Virus record (IMG/VR): IMGVR_UViG_3300048924_000203
Location: 22,232-86,231 of that record
Length of the DNA stretch: 64,000 nt
Reading direction: 5' to 3' (one strand)
DNA from: a virus
Lineage: Duplodnaviria; Heunggongvirae; Uroviricota; Caudoviricetes
This document shows, piece by piece, positions 17,975 through 30,785 of the stretch (positions within the stretch are counted from its first letter, which is position 1; the number at the start of each line of letters is the position of its first letter). A program made the translations under genes and the position numbers. The notes below the pieces were generated by a model that saw only the letters and a list, made by a program, of their open reading frames with translations, searched no databases and had not been told where the DNA came from.

Positions 17975-17986
17975 GCCCCTTGCATA
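17975..17986 (+). promoter_or_regulatory. GCCCCTTGCATA 12-mer (site A)
   Basis: Exact 12-mer found three times, always intergenic; flanked by GTCAC..GTGAC. Confidence 0.4.
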
Positions 17987-18000
17987 CAGTGACGCTCACT

Positions 18001-18020
18001 CCGCCCGCAAGGCGGGGGAC
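18001..18020 (+). terminator. stem-loop CCGCCCGCAAGGCGGGGG
   Basis: GC-rich hairpin downstream of the stop at 17960. Confidence 0.35.
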
Positions 18021-18127
18021 TGCGCAGTTGGGGTAGTTGAAACCCGGCCCGCTTCCAGCGGGAAGCCTCCAGTTCGTTACTGGGACTGCGCTCAAACAGT
18101 AGGGCCTTGGAAGGGGAAGGAGCCCCA

Positions 18128-19459
18128 TTGTTCGCCGGCACGATCGAAGTCGAAGTCCGGGCAATGGTTCAGGAACACGTCCGGTCATGGGGCGTCAACG
18201 ACGTCTACATCGGCTGCAGCGGCAACTTCAGCATCGAACGGTTCCTCGGCCCGCTCGGGCACCGGATGCACGGCAACGACGTGTCGATCTACACGTGCCA
18301 GCTCGGCAAGTACCTGTCCGGCCAGTTCGTCGACTACACCATCCGCCCCGAGTCCGCGGAGGAGCTGGCGTGGCTCGAACCGTTCATGGAGACGGACGCC
18401 GACCGGATCGCGACCCTGATGCTCGGCACACGGTTCCTGCAGTTCGTCGGCAAGACCGGCGCGTACTTCGACCGGATGCTCGACGGCTTCCAGCGGCAAT
18501 TCCCGGAGATGCACGCCGCGACCAAGGCCAAGGTGGAGGCCGTCGAGACCCGGTTGGCGTCGTTTCACGTCATGGACGTGCGCGACTGGCTCCGCAACAT
18601 CGTCCCCCCAGAGGGCGCCGTGGCCAGTTTTCCACCCTTCGATATTGGTGGGTACGAGACCATGTGGAAGCCCCTCGACCAGCATTTCGAGTGGGCCGAA
18701 CCGGACTACGACATCCTGGACGAGAAGGGTATCCACGACACCCTTGAGCTGATCATGGACCGGGACCACTGGATCCTCGCGTCGAACCACCGCAGGCCGG
18801 AGTGGGAGGAGCGGCTGGTCGGCGTCGTGCAGACGTCGCCGCGGCGCCGGCCGAACTACGTGTATGCGTCGACGGAGAAGACGCGGATCGTGAAGCCCCG
18901 CACAGTGCTTGAGCCGGTCAAGGTCCCACGATTGGGTAGGGGCGACCGGATCGGCGACACCCTGAAGCTCGCGCCTCTCACTCTGCCGCAGTTCAACATG
19001 CTGCGGGCGCAGTACCTGAATCCGAAGATCCGCACCGCCGCGCCATCGGCGTCGTTCGCGGTCCTGTCGGAGGGTCGGATCATCGGCGCCGTCGCCGTGC
19101 TGCCCGGCAAGTTCGATCCGGATGAGATCTACCTGATGTCGGACTTCGCGGTTGCGTCGTCGGACTACTCGAAGTTGTCGAAACTCGTTGTCATGGCTGC
19201 TTGTTCGAAAGAATTGCAGCATTTGATGCAGAACGCGATGTCGCGGCCGATCCGGAAGGTTGCGACAACCGCGTTCACGCAGCGCCCGGTCTCGATGAAG
19301 TACCGCGGGCTGCTCGATCTGTCGAAGCGATCCGATTCCACGGATCCCGAGTTCGCGTACGAGCTGCAGTACGGCGGCACGGTCGGCCGCTGGACCTTGA
19401 CCGAGGCTGTGGCGGAGTGGCGTAAGCGTGGCTGGGACACGGTGAAAGGCGAAGAGTGA
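18128..19459 (+). CDS. hypothetical protein (443 aa); possibly a divergent gamma-class methyltransferase-like N-terminal domain
   Basis: TTG start after GGGAAGGAGCCC; YIGCSGNFS and FPPF motifs spaced as in Dam; GTGA-coupled to the ParB-like gene. Confidence 0.55.
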   Translation: MFAGTIEVEVRAMVQEHVRSWGVNDVYIGCSGNFSIERFLGPLGHRMHGNDVSIYTCQLGKYLSGQFVDYTIRPESAEELAWLEPFMETDADRIATLMLGTRFLQFVGKTGAYFDRMLDGFQRQFPEMHAATKAKVEAVETRLASFHVMDVRDWLRNIVPPEGAVASFPPFDIGGYETMWKPLDQHFEWAEPDYDILDEKGIHDTLELIMDRDHWILASNHRRPEWEERLVGVVQTSPRRRPNYVYASTEKTRIVKPRTVLEPVKVPRLGRGDRIGDTLKLAPLTLPQFNMLRAQYLNPKIRTAAPSASFAVLSEGRIIGAVAVLPGKFDPDEIYLMSDFAVASSDYSKLSKLVVMAACSKELQHLMQNAMSRPIRKVATTAFTQRPVSMKYRGLLDLSKRSDSTDPEFAYELQYGGTVGRWTLTEAVAEWRKRGWDTVKGEE

Positions 19460-20367
19460 AAAGGCATATCGAGGTACTGAAGCTCGCTGACCTCAAGGCG
19501 CAGCACATCAATGCTCGCTACATGAAGTCGGATATGTTCCGGCAGCTGGTCGCGAACCTGCAGAAGGATGGCACACTCACCTCCGTGCCGCTGGTCCGGC
19601 CGGACGGTGACGGTCACCGCATACTCTCCGGACACCACCGCATCGCCGCCGCCATCGAAGCGGGCATCACTGAGTCCGAGTGCTTGGTGCTGGACGAGGA
19701 AATCTCGCGGCAGCAGGAAGTCGCACTCGTCATCTCGCACAACAGCATCGACGGTGAGGACGACCCCGCCACGCTGAAAGCGATGTACGCGGAACTCGAC
19801 GACACGGAGTGGATGGACTACTCCGGTCTGGACGATCGCACCCTCGAACTCCTGGACGAGGTGTCGACGGAAGGGCTGTCGGAGGCGAATCTGTCGTTCT
19901 CCACGATCAACCTGGTGTTCCTGCCGCACGAGAAGGAAGCCGCCGAAGAGGCGCTGTTCGAGGCGACGAAGCAGTACGGCAGCGGCGATAAGTGGCTGGC
20001 TGGGATCGCCCAGTACGAGCCAACTTTGAACGCGCTGGAGACGGTCAAGTCGTCGTACGCCATCGGAAATATCGCCACCGCGCTCGGGATTGTGCTCGCG
20101 GTTTTCGAGAAGAATCTGACGCAGCTGGCTGACGGCTGGGTCGACAAGTCCGGGAAGCCGCGCCGGAAGAAGCCGGTCCCGATGGAGACCGTTTTCGGTA
20201 CGCGGCTGGTGGACAGCACTGTCGCGGCGAAAGTCCTTGCGGCGGTGAAGCAAGCGGAGAAGGCCGGCGATGTGCCCGATGGTGACCCTTGGGCGTTCAT
20301 CGGGTACCTCGCGGACACCTACCTCCTGTCACTACAGGCGGACGACGAGAACGAAAAGGCGTCCTAA
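19456..20367 (+). CDS. ParB-like nuclease-domain protein
   Basis: ParB N-terminal box RILSGHHRIAAA. Confidence 0.7.
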   Translation: MKRHIEVLKLADLKAQHINARYMKSDMFRQLVANLQKDGTLTSVPLVRPDGDGHRILSGHHRIAAAIEAGITESECLVLDEEISRQQEVALVISHNSIDGEDDPATLKAMYAELDDTEWMDYSGLDDRTLELLDEVSTEGLSEANLSFSTINLVFLPHEKEAAEEALFEATKQYGSGDKWLAGIAQYEPTLNALETVKSSYAIGNIATALGIVLAVFEKNLTQLADGWVDKSGKPRRKKPVPMETVFGTRLVDSTVAAKVLAAVKQAEKAGDVPDGDPWAFIGYLADTYLLSLQADDENEKAS

Positions 20368-20381
20368 TTTCACGAAATACA

Positions 20382-20464
20382 TTGCATAGCAAGCTGTTTC
20401 ATCATAGGATGAAGGAGTAAGCAAGCGGAAATGAGTCCGCGAGCCTGACGGAATGGAGTCCGAA
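20382..20464 (+). promoter_or_regulatory. Promoter-plus-leader repeat, copy 2: TTGCAT, 17-nt spacer, TAGGAT
   Basis: Homologous to copies 1, 3, 4 and 5. Confidence 0.55.
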
Positions 20465-20740
20465 ATGCCCCGCACCCGCACCTCACGCCCGGCGGTGGAC
20501 CACGCCGCGCGTCAGCAGGTTATTGAGCGTTTCGATGCGCAGCTCGACGCGCACGTCGCACCCCACGACAGCGCCTACCTCGACGGCGTGTACATGCTGA
20601 CCGCCCGCGGCACAGACGGCGAAGTCAAGATGACCGCCCGCAACCTTTCGATCGTTGACACAACCCGCCGGCTCGCGCTGATCTCGGTGACCAACGGTGC
20701 GACCGACGTCACCCTGAGCGTGCAGGAGTCCGCCCGATGA
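20465..20740 (+). CDS. hypothetical protein (alternative start at 20453, MESEM)
   Basis: ORF track 20453..20740; the second ATG lies 6 nt after GGAG. Confidence 0.55.
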   Translation: MPRTRTSRPAVDHAARQQVIERFDAQLDAHVAPHDSAYLDGVYMLTARGTDGEVKMTARNLSIVDTTRRLALISVTNGATDVTLSVQESAR

Positions 20741-21075
20741 GCACCATCACCATCCCCGCGATCGGCGACTCATTCGCGTACGAAGTGATCGTCTCCCACG
20801 CGAGCCTCCCGCAGGACCACAGCTGGCCCGGCAATCACGGCGTCGTTGGTGAGCACAAGCGTGGCTGGTTCAAGGACGCCAACGGCAAGTCGTACGTCGC
20901 ACACGGCTGCGACCTTGACCGCAAGCGCGCCTGCGCCGAGTGCTTCGACCAGTGGCAGACCCGCACCAGCACCGTGGTTTCCGTGCAGCACTACATGGAC
21001 AACAGCATCGAGGTCGTCCTGGCCGACGGCACCCGCCGCACCGTGGTCGCCCCGAACGGCGACGCCTGCTTCTGA
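20737..21075 (+). CDS. hypothetical protein
   Basis: ORF track. Confidence 0.55.
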   Translation: MSTITIPAIGDSFAYEVIVSHASLPQDHSWPGNHGVVGEHKRGWFKDANGKSYVAHGCDLDRKRACAECFDQWQTRTSTVVSVQHYMDNSIEVVLADGTRRTVVAPNGDACF

Positions 21076-21147
21076 CCCCCTGACCGGTGGGCCGGTCCCT
21101 CACCCCCCCGGGGACCGGCCCACCACTCCAACCGAAAGAGAGAGACG

Positions 21148-21528
21148 ATGTACCTCACGACCAAAGCGTCCGCGAAAGCCACGCTCGACGACCTGATCGC
21201 CCGCCTCACCACCCGCGTCTCGGAGAACCCGCGGCGAGTCACGGAGTACGCCAACGAGATTGAGGAGTGGCGCGGCATCACCGACACACTCTCCGAGTGG
21301 GAGCGATGGGAGTCCGACGCATCCGGCTACTTCAAGAACGCCGCAGAGCTGGTTACGGCGAAATGCGAGTGGATCGGAAGGATGGGCACCGAATCACCGG
21401 ACGATACGTGGTCCGGTCGCGGTAACGACGGACGCCGTGCCTACGCAGACGGGCGGCGCAAGGCGTTGCTATCGATCCGCGAACAGATCAGCGGCGAGGT
21501 CCGCGCGCTGAATGGAGCGTCGGCATGA
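21148..21528 (+). CDS. hypothetical protein
   Basis: ORF track. Confidence 0.55.
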   Translation: MYLTTKASAKATLDDLIARLTTRVSENPRRVTEYANEIEEWRGITDTLSEWERWESDASGYFKNAAELVTAKCEWIGRMGTESPDDTWSGRGNDGRRAYADGRRKALLSIREQISGEVRALNGASA

Positions 21529-22031
21529 CCGCACCCGCCGTGACCCCGACCATGACCGAGGGCCGAAAGAAGTTCCTGCACTACGTGTTCACCACCGCCA
21601 TGGAGGGCGGCATCCGCTACTGGGCCCAATGCGAGACCTACCATTGGGTCAACCCGAACCGTCGGCCTGAGTCGACCGTCATGGACACCGACTACCTCGA
21701 TCTCGACGGCTTTTCCGCGAAGATCACGAGCATCGATGGTGGCTGGGGCACCGACGAGGTATTCCAGTCAGGGCAGGAAGGTCCTCGCGAACTCCGCAAG
21801 AACGAGCCTCTGCGCATCGATGCCGCGGTCATCAACCGTGGCGTCATCATGATGGTCGACAAGGTGATGGAGGCAGCCGAGAGCGAGGACCCCAATGCCC
21901 AATTCAGCTGGAACTACCTGCGTCAGTTCGTGATCCAGTATCTGACCGACGGCGAGGACGGGGACTCAGACGCCACGGTCTGCGACTGGGTGGTCCAGCT
22001 CGGCTTGTTCGGAGCGCAGGTGTACGGCTGA
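21525..22031 (+). CDS. hypothetical protein
   Basis: ORF track. Confidence 0.55.
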   Translation: MTAPAVTPTMTEGRKKFLHYVFTTAMEGGIRYWAQCETYHWVNPNRRPESTVMDTDYLDLDGFSAKITSIDGGWGTDEVFQSGQEGPRELRKNEPLRIDAAVINRGVIMMVDKVMEAAESEDPNAQFSWNYLRQFVIQYLTDGEDGDSDATVCDWVVQLGLFGAQVYG

Positions 22032-22465
22032 TGAGCGATACCACTGTCGACGTGAGTGAGTGCCCCGGTCCGAACGGCTCAACAGTTCCACTGTGCGTAT
22101 TCGAGAACGCTGAGCCGAAATACGGCGGCCGGTTGGCCGTGAGCCTGGCCGACGACATGGCCTTGTTCACGCATCCCGACTATCCGACGGATTTCACCGC
22201 ACGTCCGCGGTTCCTGTCCACGGCAGACCGTCGGGTGCTGGGCTTCCTGCTGATCGAAGGACTGCCGCCGGCGGAGTACTCCGTGGGCGATCGTGTTGGA
22301 ATCCTGGGCCGCACCAAGAGCTGGGGATACGGGACCGTCGTCGCGGTCGAGACGCCGGACCCCGAAGACGTCGACGACTGCGAGCCCGAAATCAGTGTGA
22401 AGTGGGACCGGGTGACCGCGGTACAGACTCACTACCCTTCGGCGCTGTTCCCGGCGGTTTTCTGA
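22031..22465 (+). CDS. hypothetical protein
   Basis: ORF track. Confidence 0.5.
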   Translation: MSDTTVDVSECPGPNGSTVPLCVFENAEPKYGGRLAVSLADDMALFTHPDYPTDFTARPRFLSTADRRVLGFLLIEGLPPAEYSVGDRVGILGRTKSWGYGTVVAVETPDPEDVDDCEPEISVKWDRVTAVQTHYPSALFPAVF

Positions 22466-22674
22466 TGAGCGCCGCGGTCCGAAAGTACGGCAACGTGCCC
22501 CGCGAGTTCTTCGTCGAACAGCGCGTCGAGGCCATAGTCGGAGGCAGATTCCATCCTGGCACCGTCGAGCGCATCGGCCGCAAGTACGTGTACGTGCAGC
22601 TCGACAGCGGCGGCGAGCCTGTCGCTTTCAGTCCGGGCGTCGTGTCGTTCTGGCAGAACAGGGGCGACCGATGA
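22465..22674 (+). CDS. hypothetical protein
   Basis: TGATG-overlap start. Confidence 0.4.
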   Translation: MSAAVRKYGNVPREFFVEQRVEAIVGGRFHPGTVERIGRKYVYVQLDSGGEPVAFSPGVVSFWQNRGDR

Positions 22675-23156
22675 GCGCCGATCTGGTTGACCCCGAGCAC
22701 ATCCACGTCATGCTGTGGGCCGGCATGGAGCGCCGCTACGGCGGCCGGTGCAGCCCGTTGTCCTGGTACTGGGGCAACCCCGACGAGCGGGGCGTCCTCG
22801 ATCACCAGAGCGCTGATGCGGTCGGGCAGATGCTGCTCGACGCCAACGCCGCCAGCGTCAACGCCCGGTACGACGAGGACAACGCCTACGTCTGCCAGTA
22901 CCAGCGCCCGCGGTACCGGTCTTGGCAGCCGGTCGAGCTGCTGAAGGCGATCGAATGCTACGAGTACCAAGCATGCGAGGTCCACGACTGGCCGCAGACC
23001 CAGGCGTACGCGTTCTGCCAGGCCCTGCGCAAGGCCGTGATCCGCGGGATCGCCGACTACAGCGACGCCGGCACCTGGTCGATCACGTCGTCGAGCACGC
23101 CGCTGGCTGAGGTCAAGCGCCTCGCCATGGCACTGGAACGGGGTAGTGCCCGATGA
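22671..23156 (+). CDS. hypothetical protein
   Basis: ORF track. Confidence 0.55.
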   Translation: MSADLVDPEHIHVMLWAGMERRYGGRCSPLSWYWGNPDERGVLDHQSADAVGQMLLDANAASVNARYDEDNAYVCQYQRPRYRSWQPVELLKAIECYEYQACEVHDWPQTQAYAFCQALRKAVIRGIADYSDAGTWSITSSSTPLAEVKRLAMALERGSAR

Positions 23157-23584
23157 ACATCCCCGATTCGGTCATCGACCCGGCCACCGCGGATCTGGAC
23201 GTGTGGGCGTACGTCGTCGCGCTCAAGGACGACGACTGGGTCAACTGGGACTCGCCCGGCCAGATCACGAAGTACAACGGCAGCCGCCACCAAGTCGGCC
23301 GCTGGAACCTGCGTGACCTCTCCACCGGCTCACCGGTCGGGTGGGGCTACACGGACCACGAAGTCGTTGTGCTGCAAGTGATCAGCACGAGCACGGATAA
23401 CCGTGTGAGGGTCGAGGATGTGCGTCCCGGTGACGTGGTGAACGCCAAGTTGGCCCTCAGTGAGGCTGAGCTGGACTACACCGAAGTGGCTGAGGTGCGC
23501 GAACGCCCGCGCGGCAAGACGCTGGTATTCGTGGACGGTCGCACCCGCGACGTTCGCGCTATGGGATGGGTGGCCCGACGATGA
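23153..23584 (+). CDS. hypothetical protein
   Basis: ORF track. Confidence 0.55.
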   Translation: MNIPDSVIDPATADLDVWAYVVALKDDDWVNWDSPGQITKYNGSRHQVGRWNLRDLSTGSPVGWGYTDHEVVVLQVISTSTDNRVRVEDVRPGDVVNAKLALSEAELDYTEVAEVRERPRGKTLVFVDGRTRDVRAMGWVARR

Positions 23585-23847
23585 GCGAGATGGAATCGGT
23601 TGTGGCCGTTGAGGAAATCGAAACGGCGGAGCTGTCACCACGGAAGCGGCACGCGAACCGCATGTTGTTCATCGGCTGGGTCAATGCACGGCCGGGCGAA
23701 CGGTCCAGTTTGGATGTGCTCGGCTCGGTGATGCTGTACGACGCCGAGAAGTACTTCGTGGCCGCGGCGGAGGAGCTGCCCGACGAAGACGCGCTCCGGC
23801 AGCTGCACGCCGGCACCAAGGTCCGCTACTGGTCGCGGGGGATCTGA
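23581..23847 (+). CDS. hypothetical protein
   Basis: ATGA-overlap start. Confidence 0.45.
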   Translation: MSEMESVVAVEEIETAELSPRKRHANRMLFIGWVNARPGERSSLDVLGSVMLYDAEKYFVAAAEELPDEDALRQLHAGTKVRYWSRGI

Positions 23848-24089
23848 TGGCCGGGTTCCGCGTCGGCCAGCGCGTGGTGGTCAAGGCCTGCAACCTCTAC
23901 GACATCGAACCATGTGACGGCATGCCACTCGGAGGTCACTACGGCCATGTGAGTGTGGTGACTCATCGACTGATCAACGTCGAGTTGTCGGGCCGAATCG
24001 ACAAGGCGCACAGCGAATACGTCGGCGCCCGCAGCAGCCGGGACCGCACCTGGCCTTTCATCGCGGACGAGCTGGAGGCGGTGGACTGA
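23847..24089 (+). CDS. hypothetical protein
   Basis: ORF track. Confidence 0.45.
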   Translation: MAGFRVGQRVVVKACNLYDIEPCDGMPLGGHYGHVSVVTHRLINVELSGRIDKAHSEYVGARSSRDRTWPFIADELEAVD

Positions 24090-24298
24090 TGACCAAGGTC
24101 GACTACCCGCCGTGTGTGTGCGGCCATCCCGCCATTGAGCACCATCACAGCCCGTCGGGTTGCGGCACCTCGCGCTGCGAGTTCGACTCCGATCCCGACA
24201 CGGGCGCACCCAACTGCCCGTCCCAGTGCCGCGAGTACGAGCCGGCCGATATGGAGGCATGGGAGCGGGCATATGACATCAACGCGAAAGGAATCTGA
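24089..24298 (+). CDS. Cys/His-rich hypothetical protein
   Basis: ORF track. Confidence 0.45.
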   Translation: MTKVDYPPCVCGHPAIEHHHSPSGCGTSRCEFDSDPDTGAPNCPSQCREYEPADMEAWERAYDINAKGI

Positions 24299-24555
24299 TG
24301 GCGTACATCGACGTTCAGGGGCTGTTCGACGGGCCTGGTCTTGAGTTCCCCACCGACAACGAGTGGGAGCGTTCCGACTCGCTGCTGACGGAGTACGGCA
24401 TCAAGCCCGTCGAGCGCAGACATCCCGACGCGAGCGACGAGGGACTCGCCAGTTTCCTTGCGGGGAAGCCCACCAACCGGGCGTACCTGCGTTCACATAT
24501 GCGGCGGCGACTGGTCAAAGCCGGCCACCAGGTCGATGGGGGAGAAGGCATTTGA
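24298..24555 (+). CDS. hypothetical protein
   Basis: ORF track. Confidence 0.45.
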   Translation: MAYIDVQGLFDGPGLEFPTDNEWERSDSLLTEYGIKPVERRHPDASDEGLASFLAGKPTNRAYLRSHMRRRLVKAGHQVDGGEGI

Positions 24556-24719
24556 TGGAGATTCACACCCTGGTCACGGTGACCGCGGACATGCCGCTCC
24601 CGGACAACCTTCCCCGTGAAGGCTGGCGTGTCATCGGCCATCTGGACCGTGATCGCCTCACCATCGCGCGCAGTGGGCGCCGCATGGAGGTCTACAGCAA
24701 CCAAGTGGAGGCGAACTGA
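24555..24719 (+). CDS. hypothetical small protein
   Basis: TGATG overlaps at both ends. Confidence 0.35.
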   Translation: MEIHTLVTVTADMPLPDNLPREGWRVIGHLDRDRLTIARSGRRMEVYSNQVEAN

Positions 24720-25000
24720 TGGACGGCGCGATGAACGTCATGCAGCACGCCAACCTGCTGGACCGATCCACCGTCGTGGCGAAGCGCAACGGCTTCATTG
24801 AAAGCAAGGAGTACGGCGACGTCGTCGGCCTCGTCCGCCTGGACGTGAACGCGGCCGGTAAGCCGATTTGGCGCGCGCAGGCCGGCGACGTCGGATCGTT
24901 CGACTTCACCCGCGACGGCGCCATTCAACGCGTGATCGACCTGCACAACATGCAGGAGAAAGCGCGACTGTTCGATCTGATGCCGAAGGCGGAACGATGA
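24719..25000 (+). CDS. hypothetical protein
   Basis: ORF track. Confidence 0.45.
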   Translation: MDGAMNVMQHANLLDRSTVVAKRNGFIESKEYGDVVGLVRLDVNAAGKPIWRAQAGDVGSFDFTRDGAIQRVIDLHNMQEKARLFDLMPKAER

Positions 25001-25338
25001 GCGCCGAAGCCTGCGACGATTTCCCCTTCGAGCCGAGCGACTCGCACCCTGCACTCGTCGCGCCACCGCTGTTGCCTCGGAACAACTTCGACCTCGACGC
25101 GCGCAACGACACCGCTCTGGGCGCGAAGCTGCTCGCTGAAATCCTCATGGACGACGAGTGGCACCACGTCGATGACGTTGTCGACGAACTCATGGACGAA
25201 TGCGGACTCACGCTGCGCGGTGCCCGTTCCCTACTCAAGTCCGTCCGATCGCACGGTGACCTGCGGCGTGACGAACGCGGCTGGTTGCGACTCACAACCC
25301 GCTGGCAGGACTGGAACCCCGAGGCGGCTGAGCAGTGA
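24997..25338 (+). CDS. acidic hypothetical protein
   Basis: ATGA-overlap start. Confidence 0.45.
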   Translation: MSAEACDDFPFEPSDSHPALVAPPLLPRNNFDLDARNDTALGAKLLAEILMDDEWHHVDDVVDELMDECGLTLRGARSLLKSVRSHGDLRRDERGWLRLTTRWQDWNPEAAEQ

Positions 25339-25374
25339 TCAGCGGCTCTCCGGCATCAACACGAAAGGAATCTG

Positions 25375-25656
25375 ATGGAAGCGACTGACATCCGGCTCGA
25401 AATGACCTGCGCGGCTTGCCCCGAACAATACGAGGCCTTCATGGGCGCTCAGCAGGTCGGGTACCTGCGACTGCGGCACGGCACCTTCCGGGTCGACGTT
25501 CCCGACGCGGGAGGCCGCTGCGTCTACGCGGCCGAGACGATCGGTGACGGCGAGTTCGAGGACACGGAGCGTGAGTACCACCTGACACGGGCCAAGGAAG
25601 CCATCGCACGGCATGCCGAGCACGACGACTCATCCACCAACGGAAAGGACCGATAA
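25375..25656 (+). CDS. hypothetical protein
   Basis: ORF track. Confidence 0.45.
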   Translation: MEATDIRLEMTCAACPEQYEAFMGAQQVGYLRLRHGTFRVDVPDAGGRCVYAAETIGDGEFEDTEREYHLTRAKEAIARHAEHDDSSTNGKDR

Positions 25657-25658
25657 CC

Positions 25659-26066
25659 ATGAGCACTGAAACGACGGCGGCGAAGTGCCCCCTGTGCACA
25701 GCCGATATGGACCCGACTCCGGTGCGAAATGCCCTCTCTCGCTACGACAATGAGACGTACATCTGCTCTCGCTGTGGGACGGTGGAGGGCCTTGCTATGC
25801 CGACGGTGCATGACCGGCTGCCGGCGGGTGAGCCCCGCACGGTCCTGTACTTCGACGAGGTCATTGGAATTGTCAAGGTCACCGAGAACGAAGCGGGATA
25901 CATACCCGTCTTCATGAGCCCGGCCAACCCGTCGTGGTCCCGCAGCTACGTCGAGAAGGTCAACCAGCGCCTCGGCTGCGACTCGTCGACCGCGTTCAAG
26001 ATCGTGGCCGGCTCCATGGCCGCGCAGAACGACATGGAGGAGTTCCTGGGATTGAGGGAGCGATGA
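25659..26066 (+). CDS. hypothetical protein (zinc-ribbon-like)
   Basis: ORF track; CPLC..CSRC. Confidence 0.5.
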   Translation: MSTETTAAKCPLCTADMDPTPVRNALSRYDNETYICSRCGTVEGLAMPTVHDRLPAGEPRTVLYFDEVIGIVKVTENEAGYIPVFMSPANPSWSRSYVEKVNQRLGCDSSTAFKIVAGSMAAQNDMEEFLGLRER

Positions 26067-26314
26067 CCGCGACCGAGATCGCCTCTGCGGCAATGAACGT
26101 CGTCGAGGTCTTCGCCGACGGCGAGATCGCCGATTCCGTTGGCACATCGCTGACCTGTACCGAGGTCGAGACGCTGGCGGACCTGTTCCGGGCGACCGGT
26201 CACGAGCAGGCCGCCCAGGTATGGATCGACTGCCACGCCGAGGGTGACGACTGCGGCGACAGCCACTGCCGCTGCAAGGACTGCACCAATACCCCCGAAG
26301 GAGCGAAACCGTGA
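26063..26314 (+). CDS. hypothetical protein
   Basis: ATGA-overlap start. Confidence 0.45.
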   Translation: MTATEIASAAMNVVEVFADGEIADSVGTSLTCTEVETLADLFRATGHEQAAQVWIDCHAEGDDCGDSHCRCKDCTNTPEGAKP

Positions 26315-26556
26315 GCGGAATTGTGAAAGTCGAGTGGACTGAAACGTCGCAGTATTGCGCATTCATCGAGCTGCCTGAAGGCGAGACGTTCGAAGACTTC
26401 GACAAGTCCCGCTACGACATGGAGTCCCTTGTGGCGGAATACAACACGGACATCAACTTCGAGGGATGCGAGCGCAGCGACATCGAGATCTACAACCAGC
26501 AGCCCGGCCTCGGCGATGACGTCGAAGAACCGGATTGGGAGATGTTCGAAACGTGA
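26311..26556 (+). CDS. acidic hypothetical protein
   Basis: ORF track; GTGA start. Confidence 0.45.
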   Translation: MSGIVKVEWTETSQYCAFIELPEGETFEDFDKSRYDMESLVAEYNTDINFEGCERSDIEIYNQQPGLGDDVEEPDWEMFET

Positions 26557-26593
26557 CGGCTGGCACCAATGCCGCTATGAGCATCGAAACCCA

Positions 26594-26677
26594 TTGCATA
26601 ACAGTGTGTTTCATCATAGGATGATGTTGTCAGCCAGTCGGGATCGAGCCCGTAGGCGAGAGGGAATGGAGTCCCAC
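26594..26677 (+). promoter_or_regulatory. Promoter-plus-leader repeat, copy 3: TTGCAT, 17-nt spacer, TAGGAT; leader stem carries compensatory changes
   Basis: Inner stem CGGG..CCCG with loop AUCGAG replaces GCGGA..UCCGC. Confidence 0.55.
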
Positions 26678-27163
26678 ATGTCCGCAATGATCAGCACCGA
26701 GCAGTCCTCCGACCAGAAGCTGTGCGCAGGGTGCGGCAAGGCGTTCCGCGGCGACCGCGGTTTGAAGTCGCATCAGAATCACCGGAACGCGGCGCCGGAG
26801 TGCCTGCCGCACAACATCATTGAGCCAGATGCCGCGCCGGTCGAGCCGGTGATCGAGGTGGCCGCGGTGCGCGCCGCTCCGGTCTCGCCTGTGGCCGAGG
26901 CCGGCGACCGCGACGAGTTGATCCGAACGGCCCACACGTACGCGTTCGTGCCTGAGTTCCACACGCTGCTTGTCAAGGTCGACGGCCGTGACAAGTGGGC
27001 GATCCGGATGCTCGCCGAGGACGCCTTCGCTATCGCCCGGACGGCCGACAACAGGGTGCTGGTGCGGCGGACGAAGCATGAGAACAGCACCGAGACGACG
27101 GTGACGGATTACTACTGGAACGACGGCCTGCGGGTCCGCATGACCGAGCGGAATGCCGTCTAG
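26678..27163 (+). CDS. protein with C2H2-type zinc finger (alternative start at 26666)
   Basis: CAGCGKAFRGDRGLKSHQNH fits Cx2Cx12Hx3H. Confidence 0.55.
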   Translation: MSAMISTEQSSDQKLCAGCGKAFRGDRGLKSHQNHRNAAPECLPHNIIEPDAAPVEPVIEVAAVRAAPVSPVAEAGDRDELIRTAHTYAFVPEFHTLLVKVDGRDKWAIRMLAEDAFAIARTADNRVLVRRTKHENSTETTVTDYYWNDGLRVRMTERNAV

Positions 27164-27180
27164 CTACAGAACTCGCCCCG

Positions 27181-27192
27181 GCCCCTTGCATG
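27181..27192 (+). promoter_or_regulatory. GCCCCTTGCATG 12-mer (site B)
   Basis: Second copy of the 12-mer; followed by hairpins CTACCG..CGGTAG and ACCGCCGGA..TCCGGTGGT. Confidence 0.4.
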
Positions 27193-27271
27193 GGGTGTGC
27201 CTACCGTTTCGGTCGGTAGCGGGGCACGGAACCGCCGGAAGAGTCCGGTGGTCGTAGGGAAGGAGCCCTCA

Positions 27272-28303
27272 GTGGCACACGAATTGGACATCACCGACGG
27301 CGTCGCGTCGTTCGCATCCGCCAGGGAGCACGCGTGGCACCGACTCGGCACCGTCCTCCCGGACGCGATGACGGCCGAACAGGCCTTGGCCGCAGCACAT
27401 TTGGCGGGCTGGAACGTCCGCAAGAAGCCCCTGTACGTGGAGGGTGACCCGGTGCTCGCCGAGGACGGTGTCACCCTCGGTGGACCGGTGGAGGTGCCCG
27501 GGAAGTTCGCGACGGTCCGCACCAACCCCATCAACCAGAAGGAGGACGTGCTGGGCGTGGTGGGGGAGCAGTACACGATCATCCAGAACGAAGAAAACGC
27601 AGACATCCTGAACGCGATCGTCGACGAGTCCGGCGCCCACTTCGAGACCGGCGCGGCCCTGTTCGGCGGCCGGCAGACGTTCCTGTCGATGAAGCTGCCC
27701 CGCGCGATCGAGCTGCGCGGCGCGGCGGGCGTCGACGTGACGGAGCTGTACCTGATCGCGCGTAACTCGCACGACGGGTCGTCCGCGTTCCAACTGATGG
27801 TCAGCCCGGTCCGACCGGTGTGCATGAACACCCTGGCCGCGGCGATCCGAGAAGCCAAGTCTCAGTTTGCGATCCGGCACACCACGAACGCCAGGCAGAA
27901 CATCCAGTTGGCCCGCGAGGCACTGGGGATGACGTGGAAGTACGTCGACGTGTTCGAGAAGGAGTTGCAGAAGATGATCCACCGCGAGGTGTCCCGCTCG
28001 GACGCGACGATCACGCTGCGGAAAGTGCTCAAGTTCGACGAGAAGGCGCTGACGGAGCGGTCGGAGAAGAACCAGAACGCCCGCATCGGTGAGATCCTGA
28101 AACTGTGGACCAGCTCGGACACCCTGAACGGATTCCACGGATCCAGCTACGGCCTGTACCAGGCGGTGGCGGAGTGGGCTGACCACTACTCGCCGACGTG
28201 GGCCGGTCAGGGCCAGGCGGAGATGCAGCGTGCTGAGCGGATCGCGAAGGGCGGCGAGATGCAGCGCATCAAGACGGAAACGTTCACACTGCTGACGGTG
28301 TAA
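27272..28303 (+). CDS. DUF932 (TIGR03299-like) phage/plasmid protein
   Basis: GTG start after GGGAAGGAGCCC; motifs AWHRLG and NSHDGSSA. Confidence 0.75.
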   Translation: MAHELDITDGVASFASAREHAWHRLGTVLPDAMTAEQALAAAHLAGWNVRKKPLYVEGDPVLAEDGVTLGGPVEVPGKFATVRTNPINQKEDVLGVVGEQYTIIQNEENADILNAIVDESGAHFETGAALFGGRQTFLSMKLPRAIELRGAAGVDVTELYLIARNSHDGSSAFQLMVSPVRPVCMNTLAAAIREAKSQFAIRHTTNARQNIQLAREALGMTWKYVDVFEKELQKMIHREVSRSDATITLRKVLKFDEKALTERSEKNQNARIGEILKLWTSSDTLNGFHGSSYGLYQAVAEWADHYSPTWAGQGQAEMQRAERIAKGGEMQRIKTETFTLLTV

Positions 28304-28312
28304 CCCCCACTC

Positions 28313-28355
28313 GGGGTGCTCACCGGTCGCCTACGGGATGATCAGTGAGCACCCC
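28313..28355 (+). terminator. perfect 11-bp inverted repeat GGGGTGCTCAC..GTGAGCACCCC
   Basis: Immediately downstream of the DUF932 stop. Confidence 0.45.
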
Positions 28356-28404
28356 AACCCACCTCCCGAACGGAAGGTACGGGGCGGTACAGGCCAGCAG
28401 AGTC

Positions 28405-28431
28405 GGAACCCCAACTACCCGTTGGGGTTCC
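28405..28431 (+). promoter_or_regulatory. perfect 11-bp hairpin GGAACCCCAAC-taccc-GTTGGGGTTCC abutting the ribosome binding site of the XRE gene
   Basis: Inverted repeat 20 nt upstream of the ATG at 28452. Confidence 0.4.
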
Positions 28432-28451
28432 CCGCATAGGAGGAACAACGG

Positions 28452-28760
28452 ATGAGCGAGTACCAGTGGGGCCAGGCAGCACGGATCCGCTGCCTGCGCG
28501 ACTACCTCGGCCTGTCCGTCAACGAGCTCGCCGCCGCGCTGAACGTGTCGACACGCTCCTACCAGAGTTTCGAGTCCGGCCGCGCCGCCATCCCCGCCGG
28601 CGTCATGGCCGACGTCAACGCACTGGTCCACCGCCTCGACGTCCTGGCCGCCGACTACTCGTCGCGCGATGAACTGTCCATCGCAGACATGTCCGCGTTC
28701 GAGCTGCGCGCCGCCGGCATCGCCGCCGCCGCCAACCAGGAACTCCAAATCAGCCAGTGA
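28452..28760 (+). CDS. XRE-family helix-turn-helix transcriptional regulator
   Basis: LRDYLGLSVNELAAALNVSTRSYQSFESGR; ribosome binding site TAGGAGGAA. Confidence 0.75.
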   Translation: MSEYQWGQAARIRCLRDYLGLSVNELAAALNVSTRSYQSFESGRAAIPAGVMADVNALVHRLDVLAADYSSRDELSIADMSAFELRAAGIAAAANQELQISQ

Positions 28761-28784
28761 ACGCCTCGGCAGAAGGTGACGGCA

Positions 28785-28907
28785 ATGGATGACGACGACC
28801 GCGTGGCACTGCGCATCCTCGCCGTGGAGATGCTCATGGCCCTGGTGCTCCTCGCGCTGGGCTTCGGCCTCTCGGCACTCATTGTGTGGCTATTCCTGAC
28901 GAACTGA
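28785..28907 (+). CDS. small membrane protein (40 aa)
   Basis: Single hydrophobic helix; ribosome binding site GAAGGTGA. Confidence 0.3.
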   Translation: MDDDDRVALRILAVEMLMALVLLALGFGLSALIVWLFLTN

Positions 28908-28958
28908 CCCCGCGTCACACGTAGGCGCTGCACTGGCCGCGGCTACACATCTCTACCC

Positions 28959-29165
28959 ATGAGCACCCACGAGTCAGCACAAGCGACTGACCGCCGGTGG
29001 GCCACAGAATCCGAAACCGCCGAACACGCCCGCGTCAGCAACAACACCATCCGACGCTGGCGAGACCGCGGGCTGATCACCGGATACAGGGTCGGCCGCA
29101 CCGTGCGCTACGACCTCTGCGAGATCGACGAACTGCTCATCTCAGGCGCCGGCGTCGCCCCATGA
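28959..29165 (+). CDS. excisionase/MerR-like helix-turn-helix DNA-binding protein (candidate small terminase partner)
   Basis: Helix-turn-helix segment SETAEHARVSNNTIRRWRDRGLITGYRVGRTVRY; ATGA-coupled to terminase. Confidence 0.6.
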   Translation: MSTHESAQATDRRWATESETAEHARVSNNTIRRWRDRGLITGYRVGRTVRYDLCEIDELLISGAGVAP

Positions 29166-30766
29166 CAGCTGTCGTCCCCGACCAGCTCGAAGCATGGTTC
29201 GACAAGCTGGAGAAGCTGGAAGAGCCGAAACGCACCCAGATGCTGAAATGGGTGAAACAGGAACTGGCGCGCGAAAAGTCGCTCGCCACGCACCGGAACG
29301 CAGCCGAGCTCGCGGCCAGCCTCGACCCCAGCTTCGTGATTACGCCGGCCAACCGTCTGATCGCTGAGGCGATCGAAGAGGCGATCGATACGCGCCGCGG
29401 ACGACTCCTGATTACTTGTCCGCCACAAGAGGGCAAAACGACCTTATCTGCTGTGTATGGCGTGGTCAGGGCGCTGCAGAAGCACCCCGAGTGGCGGGTC
29501 ATGCTGGCCTGCTTCGCATCTGGCCTCGCGGAAGATTCCTCGATCGCCGCCCGTGCCGTCATCTCCAAGCACGGCTCGGATGCCGTGGACCCCCTCACCC
29601 AGATGGACGGCACCGACGAGCTGGGCCTCGCCCTCGCATATGACAAGGCCGCGGCGGCTCAGTGGCGGATTCGCGGCCATCGCGGTGGCCTTGTCGCTGT
29701 CGGTCTCGGCGGAACGATCTCCGGCCGGCCAGCGGACTTGCTGATCATCGACGACCCCATCCGCGGCATGGAAGCGTCAAACTCTCCAACCGTCAAGCGC
29801 CATGTGATCGAGAGCTTCCAAGGTGACCTGACGACCCGACTCGCTGCCGGGGCGCCCGTGATCCTGATCCAAACCCGATGGGCGACAGACGATTTAGCAG
29901 GCTGGATCTTGGACCGTGAGGGCAAACTGCCGACGGAGAAGCGGCGGTGGCGGCACCTCAACATCCCTGCTTTGTCTGAGGAAGGCCTCTACGATTCGCT
30001 CGGCCGCCCTCCTGGTGTGTGGTTGGAGTCGGCGCGTGGCCGCACCACCTCGGACTGGGAAGAGACTCGCGACGACGTTGGCTCCCGTGTGTTCGGCTCC
30101 CTCTATCAGGGTTCGCCGTCCCCGCTTGAGGGCGGCCTGATCAAGAAGCAGTGGCTGGAGGACCACCGACTCACACTCCCGCCCGCCAATCCGGAGTGGA
30201 CTGTGGTCGGTGTGGACCCGTGCGACTCCGGGCACGGTGACGATGCCGGTGTTGTCGCTGCCTCGATAGGCACCGACGGGCGCGTGGCGATGATCGCTGA
30301 CCGGTCCGCTCCCATGACGTCGGATGAGTGGGCGAAGACCGCCGTGAAGCTGGCGATCGAGGTCGGCGCCAGCAAGATCGTCGTCGAATCGTTCGCGACC
30401 CGGGAAACCTACCGGCGGGTGCTCGACGAAGCAGTCACCGATGCCAACCCGCCCCACTCGATCGAGATTGTGCCGTGGCCGCCGATCGGGTCCGGGCGCG
30501 GCGGCGGTGACGCGCTGGCCCGCTCCACGGCACTATTGGCGCAGTTGGAGAACGGAAAAACCCGGCTGGTTGGTCACTTCCCGAAGTGGGAGGAGAAGGC
30601 GACGAGCTGGAATGCGGGCCAGCACCAGCCAGACGGTGTCGCGGCCCTGACCGTCGCACATGACGAGCTGCTCCATGCCGCCGGGCTGGAATGGGATTTC
30701 GCGACGCCGTTCGAGACGCCGCAGGACGACGGCGACATGGGGGACTGGATGCAACGCAACATCTGA
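29162..30766 (+). CDS. terL: terminase large subunit
   Basis: Walker A-like LITCPPQEGKTT; C-terminal nuclease VGVDPCDSGHGDDAG; 534 aa. Confidence 0.85.
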   Translation: MTAVVPDQLEAWFDKLEKLEEPKRTQMLKWVKQELAREKSLATHRNAAELAASLDPSFVITPANRLIAEAIEEAIDTRRGRLLITCPPQEGKTTLSAVYGVVRALQKHPEWRVMLACFASGLAEDSSIAARAVISKHGSDAVDPLTQMDGTDELGLALAYDKAAAAQWRIRGHRGGLVAVGLGGTISGRPADLLIIDDPIRGMEASNSPTVKRHVIESFQGDLTTRLAAGAPVILIQTRWATDDLAGWILDREGKLPTEKRRWRHLNIPALSEEGLYDSLGRPPGVWLESARGRTTSDWEETRDDVGSRVFGSLYQGSPSPLEGGLIKKQWLEDHRLTLPPANPEWTVVGVDPCDSGHGDDAGVVAASIGTDGRVAMIADRSAPMTSDEWAKTAVKLAIEVGASKIVVESFATRETYRRVLDEAVTDANPPHSIEIVPWPPIGSGRGGGDALARSTALLAQLENGKTRLVGHFPKWEEKATSWNAGQHQPDGVAALTVAHDELLHAAGLEWDFATPFETPQDDGDMGDWMQRNI

Positions 30767-30773
30767 CCGTCGC

Positions 30774-30785
30774 GCCCCTTGCATA
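30774..30785 (+). promoter_or_regulatory. GCCCCTTGCATA 12-mer (site C)
   Basis: Third exact copy, directly after the terminase stop. Confidence 0.4.

What the first reader, a model, noticed from the sequence alone, without database searches (positions are those of the whole stretch)
17975..30785. Exact 12-mer GCCCCTTGCATA three times, all intergenic, with Cluster-K-like GGGAAGGAGCCC start-associated boxes
GCCCCTTGCAT(A/G) sits at 17975, 27181 and 30774: before the ParB module, before DUF932, and right after the terminase large subunit. A 12-mer is not expected even once by chance in 64 kb. Sites A and B are followed 80-150 nt later by GGGAAGGAGCCC immediately upstream of the start codons at 18128 and 27272. 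The Cluster K consensus is GGGATAGGAGCCC. No good -10 element follows the TTGCAT, so these may be operators or sites for a phage-encoded factor rather than sigma-A promoters. Site A is flanked by GTCAC..GTGAC; site B by CCCC..GGGG.
Basis: seen in the sequence. Interest (0 to 1): 0.6.

Follow-up and report, generated by a model that had tools for sequence, protein, structure and literature searches.

The report
Phage promoter family sharing a 12-mer
The repeated 12-mer is real, but at two of its three sites it is the upstream half of a small family of phage promoters, its last two bases starting the -10 element, and at the third site it is one arm and loop of a conserved folded RNA leader.

Summary
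GCCCCTTGCAT(A/G) lies at 17975, 27181 and 30774, always intergenic and on the + strand. In 261 kb of this phage and 11 relatives it occurs only at these three orthologous places.

The interpretation needs changing. At sites A and C, TTGCAT is not a -35. The final TA of the 12-mer opens a -10 hexamer TAnnnT (TACAGT, TAACGT).

These two sites belong to a discrete family, GWCRCR-N9-TAnnnT. It has 7 members in the window (1.7 expected) and one more 1.4 kb upstream. All are co-oriented with the downstream genes, including the only two minus-strand units.

- Site C drives a leaderless mRNA. TAnnnT, then 7 nt (6 in one genome), then GTG/ATG is kept in 8 genomes with four different hexamers.
- Site B is different. 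There the 12-mer is a stem arm and loop in a conserved three-way-junction leader before DUF932, supported by covariation.

GGGAAGGAGCCC is a start-associated RBS hairpin: six copies in two compensating variants.

No transcription start site or binding data exist. What reads the conserved box at about -25 is unknown.

The parts
17970..17990 (+). Site A promoter-like element: box GTCACG (17970-75), spacer CCCCT, TGCA, and -10 TACAGT (17985-90). The 12-mer occupies 17975-17986.
   Evidence: TAC[A/G/T]GT is conserved in 7 genomes upstream of the hairpin and tRNA.
18000..18018 (+). Hairpin CCGCC-cgcaa-GGCGG between the predicted start site and the tRNA.
   Evidence: Four different compensating stems occur in relatives: CCGCC/GGCGG, GCCCAC/GTGGGC, GCTCAC/GTGAGC and GCCCGC/GCGGGC.
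18022..18093 (+). tRNA-Gly (anticodon UCC).
   Evidence: ARAGORN. It is also found in L071 and annotated in phage Argie. No Rfam tRNA match at E <= 10, so it is atypical.
18114..18125 (+). Start-associated RBS box GGGAAGGAGCCC, a GGG/CCC stem with AAGGAG in the loop, 2 nt before TTG 18128.
18128..20367 (+). Operon body: DAM-like plus GNAT-like fusion (18128-19459) and a ParB-like protein (19456-20367).
   Evidence: Pfam and PHROGs. NCBI records name homologues 'putative antirestriction adenine methyltransferase'.
27175..27225 (+). Site B: a three-way junction. P1 is 27175-80 with 27220-25. P2 is 27181-85 with 27192-96, loop TTGCAT. P3 is 27201-06 with 27214-19. The 12-mer (27181-27192) is the 5' arm of P2, its loop, and the first base of the 3' arm.
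   Evidence: z = -2.3; 96.6% paired; 8 pairs with double changes; single copy in each of 8 genomes.
27231..27252 (+). P4 hairpin ACCGCCGGA-agag-TCCGGTGGT of the DUF932 leader.
   Evidence: 2 pairs with double changes. The same type of hairpin occurs in the canonical leader cassettes.
27257..27268 (+). Start-associated RBS box GGGAAGGAGCCC, 3 nt before GTG 27272 (DUF932, 27272-28303).
   Evidence: helix 5.
30769..30789 (+). Site C promoter-like element: box GTCGCG, spacer CCCCT, TGCA, and -10 TAACGT (30784-89). The 12-mer occupies 30774-30785.
30797..31300 (+). Leaderless gene for an HTH protein (phrog_928, equivalent to Argie gp3). GTG 30797 lies 7 nt after the hexamer and has no Shine-Dalgarno.
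   Evidence: The ATG at 30830 is not a start codon in L071, L074 or Argie.
32603..32623 (+). Family member D: GTCGCG CCTGC TGCA TAGGCT, with GTG 7 nt after the hexamer.
   Evidence: Conserved in L070 (GTCGCG..TACGCT) and L071 (GTCACG..TACGCT, then 7 nt, then ATG).
42074..42094 (+). Family member E: GTCGCA GGTCT TGCA TAACCT, upstream of the AAA ATPase gene.
42042..42062 (-). Family member E': GTCACG GGGCG CTGC TACCGT, facing the minus-strand genes 41984-41079.
59096..59116 (-). Family member: GTCGCA CCCGA CTGC TACCGT, upstream of the minus-strand 717-aa gene (58930-56777).
13327..13347 (+). Weaker family member G: GACGCA CCTGT TGCA TAGGAT. The hexamer overlaps the stop codon of the upstream gene.
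   Evidence: The box is not conserved in L070 or L078, although TGCATAAGAT is.

Best explanation
The 12-mer is not a free-standing operator and not a -35 box.

**Sites A and C.** The 12-mer is positions about -23 to -12 of a phage promoter. Its parts are G (last base of an upstream box GTCRCG), CCCCT (spacer), TGCA (the place of an extended -10), and TA (first two bases of the -10 hexamer TAnnnT).

The host sigma-A-type RNA polymerase would open DNA at TAnnnT and start about 8 nt after the hexamer.

- At C this start is the G of GTG 30797. The HTH gene after the terminase is then made as a leaderless mRNA.
- At A the transcript begins just before a conserved hairpin. It carries tRNA-Gly and then the DAM-like/GNAT and ParB-like genes.

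**The family.** A and C are two of eight such elements, GWCRCR-N9-TAnnnT. Each points at its own downstream gene(s).

- Shown: the sequence family, its orientation, and its conservation.
- Inferred: promoter activity and the start sites.
- Not known: what reads the GTCRCR box at about -28 to -23. It is too close to the -10 to be a -35. I think a phage or host DNA-binding factor is most likely.

**Site B.** The same 11 bases form the 5' arm and loop of helix P2 in a conserved three-way-junction RNA leader. This leader sits between the upstream gene's stop codon and DUF932, and it is probably transcribed from the canonical promoter at 26594. B shares sequence with A and C, probably through common descent from the group's CCCCTTGCAT promoter context. 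It does not share their function.
For: **Geometry at C.** Eight genomes keep TAnnnT, then 7 nt (6 in L074), then GTG/ATG. They use four different hexamers: TAACGT, TACCGT, TAGTCT and TATGGT. The 7-nt stretch is unrelated between genomes and has no Shine-Dalgarno.
- The coding sequence DRWEPD starts right at that codon, with synonymous changes.
- The downstream ATG is absent in three genomes.
- Argie's curated gene 3 starts at the same GTG.
- TAnnnT is rare in this window, 0.0008 per position.

**Geometry at A.** TAC[A/G/T]GT is conserved in 7 genomes. It is followed by a hairpin whose stem changes four times with compensation, then by tRNA-Gly.

**The family.**
- 7 matches to GWCRCR-N9-TAnnnT in the window against 1.72 expected; 0 of 100 shuffles reach 7.
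- An eighth copy lies 1.4 kb upstream in the same phage.
- A position-weight scan finds nothing else above 12 bits in 76 kb.
- 5 of the 7 TGCNTAnnnT sites carry the box at the fixed offset (P about 1e-11).
- The two minus-strand members sit upstream of the only minus-strand genes.
- RTG lies exactly 7 nt after the hexamer in 3 of 8 members (P about 2e-3).

**Constraint.** Four-fold-site identity between the window and L070/L075 is about 0.57. Yet the 23 nt upstream of the discriminator at C, including the 12-mer, are identical in 4 genomes.

**No -35 reading.** No TAnnnT lies 16-18 nt after TTGCAT at any of the three sites. The phage's true -35/-10 promoters, TTGCAT-N17-TAGGAT plus leader, are found elsewhere: 1628, 20382, 26594, 31327 and 32703.

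**Site B.** The consensus fold has 30 pairs, 96.6% of cells paired, and 8 pairs with double changes against 2.5 in shuffles (0 of 500). Slid controls give 0-4. The window fold has z = -2.3.

**Background.** Mycobacterial leaderless mRNAs start with RTG at +1, behind an ordinary -10 and without a Shine-Dalgarno (PMC4633059).
Against: - There is no transcription start site, RNA-seq or binding data. The phage is known only from metagenome assemblies.
- The host is inferred from similarity to Mycobacterium phages.
- Within the 12-mer, the spacer CCCCT drifts in close relatives at site A (CCCTT, TCGCT). The exact identity of A and C may therefore be partly coincidence or homogenisation.
- The box is absent from Argie, L072 and L074, although the -10 geometry is kept there. 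The box is thus not needed for the basic promoter.
- With 1.7 chance matches expected, one or two of the eight (G, or the member at 42062 on the minus strand) may be accidental.
- The sharing of 11 bases between B and A/C is not explained mechanistically. By my composition-based estimate, chance is about 0.002-0.05.
- Translational re-initiation after TerL cannot be formally excluded for the gene at 30797.
Confidence: 0.68

Rival explanations
1. Operator reading. The 12-mer, or the longer GTCRCGCCCCTTGCA, is mainly the binding site of a phage-encoded regulator that represses or activates the three loci together. Candidates are the HTH protein encoded right after site C (autoregulation), the XRE protein at 28452, the BldC/excisionase-like HTH, or the WhiB-like protein upstream of the window. 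This can coexist with the promoter reading: the factor would act at the box and spacer.
For: - The spacer and box are conserved far beyond the neutral expectation at C. An ordinary -10-only promoter would not need this.
- The box keeps a fixed 9-nt distance to the hexamer in 8 elements.
- Within a genome the box at C and D is the same: GTCGCG in the window and L070, GTCACG in L071.
- Site C sits at the promoter of an HTH gene with a weak sigma-region-4-like match (E = 0.0012, far below the family cut-off).
- Several HTH and WhiB genes are present.
Against: - The element is asymmetric, with no dyad shared by the sites. GTCAC..GTGAC occurs only at A.
- The 12-mer core drifts at site A in relatives that are 92-96% identical in the downstream protein.
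- B has neither the box nor the hexamer.
- No binding data exist and no regulator has been identified.
Confidence: 0.25
2. RNA-level signal at all three sites. GCCCCUUGCAU would act in the transcript as a structure, a processing site or a protein-binding site. This is as it appears to do at site B.
For: - All copies are on the coding strand.
- B is clearly part of a conserved RNA-type fold.
- Site A precedes a tRNA that must be processed.
Against: - The regions around A and C fold no better than shuffles (z = -0.54 and -0.43).
- There is no partner for GCCCC at A or C.
- At C a transcript starting at 30797 would not contain the motif.
- In relatives, what is conserved at A and C is the hexamer and its spacing, not pairing.
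Confidence: 0.07
3. Mosaic-junction or chance reading. The copies would be leftovers of recombination between modules (boundary sequences), or a coincidence in a GC-rich genome, with no present function.
For: - Nucleotide similarity to Argie-type phages starts at 18012, just after site A.
- Many 11-mers recur three times in this window.
- The group's canonical promoters carry a similar -35 context. Argie has AACCCCTTGCAT and the window has AACCCATTGCAT.
Against: - Synteny runs across sites B and C in all relatives, with or without the 12-mer.
- The element is strictly conserved at B and C in four genomes despite about 43% divergence at neutral sites.
- There are zero copies in coding DNA in 261 kb.
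- The family statistics argue against chance.
Confidence: 0.05

Closest known systems
Mycobacterial sigma-A-type -10-only promoters giving leaderless mRNAs (Shell et al. 2015, PMC4633059). Leaderless repressor transcripts of mycobacteriophage BPs are recalled from memory and were not checked here.
   Same: - A TAnnnT hexamer with no recognisable -35.
- RTG at the predicted +1.
- No Shine-Dalgarno.
- The hexamer-to-start distance is conserved.
   Different: - A conserved GTCRCR box lies 9 nt upstream of the hexamer, with TGC(A) next to it. This is not part of the general mycobacterial promoter description.
- No start sites have been mapped here.
Cluster K mycobacteriophage start-associated sequences, SAS/ESAS (Pope et al. 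2011, PMC3203893)
   Same: - Asymmetric box of the form GGG-N-CCC containing AGGAG.
- Lies 2-3 nt before start codons, in one orientation only.
- Often preceded by an inverted repeat.
   Different: - The box is 12 nt (GGGAAGGAGCCC, or GGAATGGAGTCC), not the 13-nt GGGATAGGAGCCC.
- There are 6 copies, not 11-19.
- The outer bases and the upstream repeat show compensatory changes consistent with RNA hairpins. Pope et al. found little support for RNA pairing in the ESAS.
- The phage is related to Northamptonvirus phages, not to Cluster K.
Phage T4 middle promoters (MotA box at -30 plus a -10, read after sigma appropriation by AsiA/MotA). Recalled from established knowledge.
   Same: Bipartite promoter: an ordinary -10 plus a phage-specific box that replaces the -35, at a fixed short distance.
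   Different: - The box sequence differs and the distance is 9 nt here, against about 12.
- No MotA or AsiA homologue was sought or found.
- The host is an actinobacterium.
- This is an analogy of mechanism only.
Cluster A mycobacteriophage stoperators (13-bp asymmetric repressor sites; cited within PMC3203893)
   Same: Short asymmetric repeats in intergenic DNA, oriented with the direction of transcription.
   Different: - The sequence is different.
- There are 3 copies (12-mer) or 8 (family), not dozens.
- Each family member carries its own -10 at a fixed distance.
- No cognate repressor has been identified.
Sigma-54 promoters (TGGCACG-N4-TTGCW)
   Same: GTCACG-CCCC-TTGCA at site A matches this consensus at every specified position but one.
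   Different: - The invariant GG is GT here.
- TGC shifts by 1 nt relative to the box in the two minus-strand members.
- TAnnnT conservation is not a sigma-54 feature.
- Actinobacteria lack sigma-54 (established knowledge).
- Rejected.

Membership tests
Sigma-A-type -10 promoter with leaderless mRNA (mycobacterial type) | TAnnnT hexamer about 6-8 nt upstream of the transcript start | tested here: met
   TACAGT at 17985, TAACGT at 30784, and 6 further members. The hexamer is conserved at sites A and C in 7 and 8 genomes.
Sigma-A-type -10 promoter with leaderless mRNA (mycobacterial type) | ATG or GTG at +1 and no Shine-Dalgarno upstream | tested here: met
   Site C: GTG 30797 lies 7 nt after the hexamer. 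The 7 nt are unrelated among relatives and purine-poor. The same holds for D and the member at 42062 on the minus strand.
Sigma-A-type -10 promoter with leaderless mRNA (mycobacterial type) | A primary (triphosphate) 5' end mapped at that position | not testable with these tools
   No transcript data exist. The phage is known only from assemblies.
Canonical -35/-10 promoter of this phage group (TTGCAT-N17-TAGGAT plus leader) | -10 hexamer 16-18 nt downstream of TTGCAT | tested here: not met
   At 17 nt the hexamers are GCCCGC (A), TCGGTC (B) and TCCGGA (C). Five true cassettes lie elsewhere.
Cluster K SAS | 13-bp GGGATAGGAGCCC with at most 2 deviations | tested here: inconclusive
   GGGAAGGAGCCC is one base shorter: 1 deletion, or more than 2 mismatches if ungapped.
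Cluster K SAS | 11-19 copies per genome, 3-7 bp before start codons, one orientation | tested here: not met
   2 exact copies plus 4 variant copies in 76 kb. All are on the + strand, 2-3 nt before starts. Position and orientation are met; copy number is not.
Cluster K ESAS | Imperfect 17-bp inverted repeats upstream of the SAS that do not covary as RNA | tested here: not met
   The upstream repeat here is a 9-bp stem with compensatory changes (helix 4).
Sigma-54 promoter | GG at -24 and GC at -12 with fixed spacing | tested here: not met
   GT replaces GG in all members. The TGC offset differs in the two minus-strand members.
Stoperator-type repressor sites | Many copies of one asymmetric site bound by the phage repressor | not tested
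   The copy number is low (3 or 8). No repressor was identified and binding cannot be tested here.
tRNA or tRNA-like element (considered for site B) | Cloverleaf recognised by tRNA finders or related to the phage's tRNA-Gly | tested here: not met
   ARAGORN at default settings finds nothing. At a relaxed threshold it calls B, but it also makes 144 calls in the window and about 90 in shuffles. Model R2 of P1-P3 does not match the tRNA-Gly loci. There is no Rfam match.

The most novel reading that the evidence does not exclude
The GTCRCR box, fixed 9 nt upstream of a bare -10, is the recognition site of a phage-encoded factor. That factor replaces -35 recognition and redirects the host sigma-A polymerase to a dedicated gene set: the tRNA and DNA-modification operon, the HTH gene after the terminase, and the reverse-oriented inserted genes. 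This would be an actinobacteriophage counterpart of T4-style sigma appropriation. The same CCCCTTGCA sequence in the DUF932 leader would then be a decoy or second target of that factor.
Probability: 0.2. Interest if true: 0.65.

Novelty: new variant of a known kind. Interest (0 to 1): 0.42.

Why it matters
Transcription signals of actinobacteriophages are poorly charted, and most are guessed from E. coli-like consensus.

This window gives a clean, testable set:
- one class of classical -35/-10 promoters with a conserved leader;
- a second class of eight -10-driven promoters with a fixed upstream box, several of which give leaderless transcripts.

If confirmed, the second class would do three things:
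- mark independently expressed genes, including the reverse-oriented insertions in the structural region;
- improve start-codon calls, since gene callers mis-start the leaderless gene after the terminase;
- point to an unknown factor that reads the box.

Two by-products bear on the long-unexplained Cluster K start-associated sequences. One is the covarying DUF932 leader. The other is the evidence that start-associated GGG..CCC boxes are small RNA hairpins presenting the Shine-Dalgarno sequence.

Tried and rejected
- **TTGCAT as a -35.** No TAnnnT lies at 16-18 nt at any of the three sites. The generic sigma-70 scan found nothing, but it also misses the phage's evident promoters, so it is uninformative.
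- **Exact-pattern scan of IMG/VR** with CGCCCCTTGCATANNGT. It gave 23 single, scattered hits that look like background, and no contig has two.
- **IMG/VR relatives through DUF932.** Only 39-48% identical proteins were found, and none carries the B element.
- **tRNA-like nature of site B.** This was prompted by weak matches of model R1 to the tRNA-Gly loci. It was rejected. Those matches come from the shared RBS box, since model R2 without it finds none. Relaxed ARAGORN calls occur at the background rate.
- **Sigma-54 resemblance.** Rejected; see the membership test.
- **Rfam.** No family matches at A or B.
- **GTCAC..GTGAC at site A as an operator dyad or hairpin.** It is not shared by other members and its fold is not significant.
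- **PDB sequence search for the HTH protein after site C.** Only a marginal Spo0J match was found (E = 0.23).
- **One mistyped pattern search** returned nothing and is meaningless.

Full report
**What the window is.** It is 64 kb of a high-GC (about 65%) tailed phage in which nearly all genes lie on the + strand. The terminase large subunit is 100% identical to a protein on a JGI metagenome contig of 108,881 bp. Two Logan contigs from run SRR35925709 are 100% identical to the window. They extend it by 4.1 kb on the left and 7.8 kb on the right.

The nearest cultured relatives are Mycobacterium phages of the genus Northamptonvirus: Argie, Jeon, Taptic and others. They share 77-81% nucleotide identity over a few segments only. 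I fetched eleven metagenomic or cultured relatives carrying the same gene neighbourhoods: L070-L075, L078-L081 and Argie.

**Checking the observation.** Only 0.06 copies are expected for that pattern, and no shuffle reaches three. GGGAAGGAGCCC occurs twice, 2-3 nt before the starts at 18128 and 27272.

The statistical argument needs tempering. 173 different 11-mers recur at least three times on this strand, because of GC-rich codon repeats. What sets this motif apart is location and conservation. In 261 kb of this phage plus relatives it occurs ten times with at most one mismatch. All ten are at the three orthologous intergenic places and none is in coding DNA.

This phage does have classical promoters whose -35 is TTGCAT. 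The unit AAATACATTGCAT-N17-TAGGAT is followed by a conserved leader (hairpin GCGGAAAnGAGTCCGC) and the RBS box GGAATGGAGTCC. It occurs at about 1628, 20382, 26594, 31327 and 32703. Argie has the same family as GAAACCCCTTGCAT-N17-TAGGTT.

None of the three 12-mer sites has a TAnnnT 16-18 nt after TTGCAT. Instead, at sites A and C the last two bases of the 12-mer begin a hexamer of the mycobacterial -10 form: TACAGT at 17985 and TAACGT at 30784.

**Site C.** The gap between the TerL stop (30764-66) and the next gene is 30 nt. Aligning eight genomes shows TAnnnT, then 7 nt (6 in L074), then GTG or ATG in every one.

- Four different hexamers are used: TAACGT, TACCGT, TAGTCT and TATGGT.
- The 7-nt stretch is unrelated from genome to genome and contains no Shine-Dalgarno.
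- The reading frame starts at that codon. The peptide DRWEPD is conserved with synonymous changes.
- The later ATG (30830) that gene callers prefer is ATC or CTC in three genomes.
- The curated start of Argie gene 3 is the same GTG.

This is the signature of a promoter making a leaderless mRNA, a common arrangement in mycobacteria (PMC4633059). TAnnnT is rare in this window, at 0.0008 per position, so its presence at a fixed offset is not trivial.

The 23 nt upstream of the variable stretch, including the whole 12-mer, are identical in four genomes. Their four-fold synonymous sites in TerL are only about 57% identical. That part is therefore under strong constraint.

**Site A.** Seven genomes keep TAC[A/G/T]GT. 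It is followed after about 10 nt by a hairpin whose stem has four different, mutually compensating sequences. Then come the box GGGAAGGAGCCC and the DAM-like/GNAT gene, with ParB-like second.

Here the 12-mer itself drifts. It reads GCCCTTTGCATA in a relative whose downstream protein is 96% identical, and GTCGCTTGCATA at 92%. It is absent from Argie, L080 and L081, which have TGC directly before the hexamer, a standard extended -10. So at A the conserved parts are the hexamer and TGC(A), not the C-run.

**The family.** Searching TGCNTAnnnT gave seven + strand hits and none on the other strand. Five of the seven carry G[T/A]C[G/A]C[G/A] exactly 9 nt before the hexamer (chance about 1e-11).

The pattern GWCRCR-N9-TAnnnT has seven matches in the window against 1.72 expected, and 0 of 100 shuffles reach seven. 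An eighth lies 1.4 kb left of the window, between a WhiB-like gene and a BldC/excisionase-like HTH gene. A weight-matrix scan of the 76 kb finds nothing else above 12 bits, although that matrix was trained on these same sites.

Two members are on the minus strand. They sit exactly upstream of the only minus-strand genes: 41984-41079, and the 717-aa gene ending at 56777. Orientation therefore follows transcription. Three of the eight have GTG exactly 7 nt after the hexamer.

Member D (32603) is conserved in L070, and in L071 it is followed by a leaderless ATG. The box is the same at C and D within a genome: GTCGCG in the window and L070, GTCACG in L071. Argie, L072 and L074 lack the box although they keep the -10 geometry.

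With a 9-nt gap to the hexamer, the box lies at about -28 to -23. That is too close to be a -35. What reads it is unknown.

The near match to a sigma-54 promoter (GTCACG-N4-TTGCA) fails on several counts:
- the essential GG is absent;
- the TGC spacing is not constant;
- TAnnnT conservation is not a sigma-54 feature;
- the host group lacks sigma-54.

**Site B is a different object.** It has neither the box (CCCCGG instead) nor a hexamer (TGGGGT). In eight genomes, the roughly 100 nt between the stop codon of the upstream gene and the start of the next gene fold into a common structure. That next gene is DUF932 in six of the eight; Argie and L074 have other small genes there. The parts are:

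- P1: GCCCCG / CGGGGC.
- P2: GCCCC-TTGCAT-GGGGT. This is the 12-mer.
- P3: CTACCG / CGGTAG.
- P4: ACCGCCGGA / TCCGGTGGT.
- A 4-bp helix closing GGG-AAGGAG-CCC.

96.6% of cells are paired. Eight pairs carry changes on both sides, against 2.5 in shuffles (0 of 500) and 0-4 in slid controls. The window sequence folds better than shuffles (z = -2.3). The regions around A, C, D and E do not.

P2 is CCCGC-GTCA-GCGGG in L072 and CCAGCTG-CC-CAGCTGG in Argie. In those two genomes the helix, not the 12-mer, is what is kept. The six others do keep GCCCC(C)TTGC.

The element is single-copy and confined to this phage group, and it matches no Rfam family. It most likely lies inside the transcript from the canonical promoter at 26594. 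Whether it attenuates, is processed, or stabilises the DUF932 message cannot be told here. My tRNA-like idea for it failed its controls.

**Why B shares 11 bases with A and C is not settled.** By my own composition-based estimate, chance is about 0.002 for + strand intergenic DNA and about 0.05 genome-wide. The CCCCTTGCAT context is also the -35 neighbourhood of this group's canonical promoters, with a CCCC..GGGG hairpin around it in Argie. Common descent from such a promoter module is therefore plausible. A shared binding factor is possible but unsupported.

**The start-associated boxes.** There are six copies: GGGAAGGAGCCC twice and GGAATGGAGTCC four times. All are on the + strand, 2-3 nt before start codons.

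The two variants differ by a compensating pair of changes, GGG/CCC against GGA/TCC. The same switch occurs between genomes (helix 5). The box therefore looks like a small RNA hairpin holding the Shine-Dalgarno in its loop.

In form and position it resembles the Cluster K SAS (13-bp GGGATAGGAGCCC, 11-19 copies, 3-7 bp before starts; PMC3203893). It fails the sequence-length and copy-number criteria, and the phage is not a Cluster K relative.

**Verdict.** The 12-mer is best read as the upstream half of two members of a phage-specific, -10-driven promoter family. One of them produces a conserved leaderless transcript. The third copy is embedded in a conserved RNA leader.

This is a new variant of a known kind of signal. 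It is of moderate interest, and it comes with clear experiments.

Noticed in passing
ARAGORN calls it, and Argie has it annotated. Rfam gives no tRNA match even at E <= 10. By eye it has a 3-bp D stem and T-loop TTCGTTA, so it is atypical.
   Followed up: partly
window about 1620-1710, 20375-20465, 26585-26680, 31320-31410, 32700-32790: There are five copies of a promoter-plus-leader cassette. Each has a -35 (TTGCAT, TTGCAC, TTGCCC or TTGATT), a 17-nt spacer, a -10 TAGGAT, a hairpin GCGGAAAnGAGTCCGC, the RBS box GGAATGGAGTCC, and a start codon. The same cassette occurs in L070-L072 and Argie.
   Followed up: partly
window 27175-27268, and the orthologous places in L069-L075: A conserved, covarying structured leader (three-way junction plus two hairpins) lies just after the upstream stop codon and before the next gene, which is DUF932 in six of the eight genomes. 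It has no Rfam family, is single-copy, and was found in all 8 genomes of this phage group that were checked.
   Followed up: yes
window 1696, 18114, 20450, 26663, 27257, 32771: The start-associated RBS boxes come in two variants, GGG..CCC and GGA..TCC. Both keep pairing, which suggests a small hairpin with the Shine-Dalgarno in its loop. This may bear on the unexplained Cluster K SAS.
   Followed up: partly
window 32513-32545: A textbook intrinsic terminator (CCCCGCAC-tcatcta-GTGCGGGG followed by a T-rich tail) lies right after the Band-7/SPFH gene. A second hairpin (CCGTTAC..GTAACGG) follows, just before family member D.
   Followed up: no
window 32631-32741: A possible 36-codon leaderless ORF starts at the GTG 7 nt after the hexamer of member D. 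A similar N-terminus (VDGTAG..) follows the orthologous element in L070. It overlaps the canonical promoter at 32703, so it may not be real.
   Followed up: no
window 42042-42094: Two family members lie back to back on opposite strands, 11 nt apart between their boxes. They form a divergent control region between the minus-strand genes and the AAA ATPase gene.
   Followed up: partly
window 28997-30766: The TerL gene as called in the databases starts at 29162 (534 aa), not at the first start of the ORF. Relatives carry inteins in TerL (P0004, P0016, P0030). In relatives a small HTH_17 gene precedes TerL, and its likely equivalent here is the ORF at 28959-29165.
   Followed up: no
window 18128-20367; L079, L080: The module of tRNA-Gly, DAM-like/GNAT gene ('putative antirestriction adenine methyltransferase' in NCBI names) and ParB-like gene travels together in several phages. 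Some relatives have insertions: a 706-aa version, and an HNH gene between the two genes in L079.
   Followed up: no
whole window: TAnnnT hexamers are strongly depleted, at 0.0008 per position on both strands. This is about 6-fold below my estimate from base composition alone. It makes the conserved hexamers stand out.
   Followed up: no
window 30797-31300: The protein after TerL has an N-terminal HTH with a weak sigma-region-4-like match (NCBIfam E = 0.0012, far below the cut-off). By eye it has a central helical stretch and a C-terminal Cys-rich tail. It could be a regulator or a small-terminase-like protein.
   Followed up: partly
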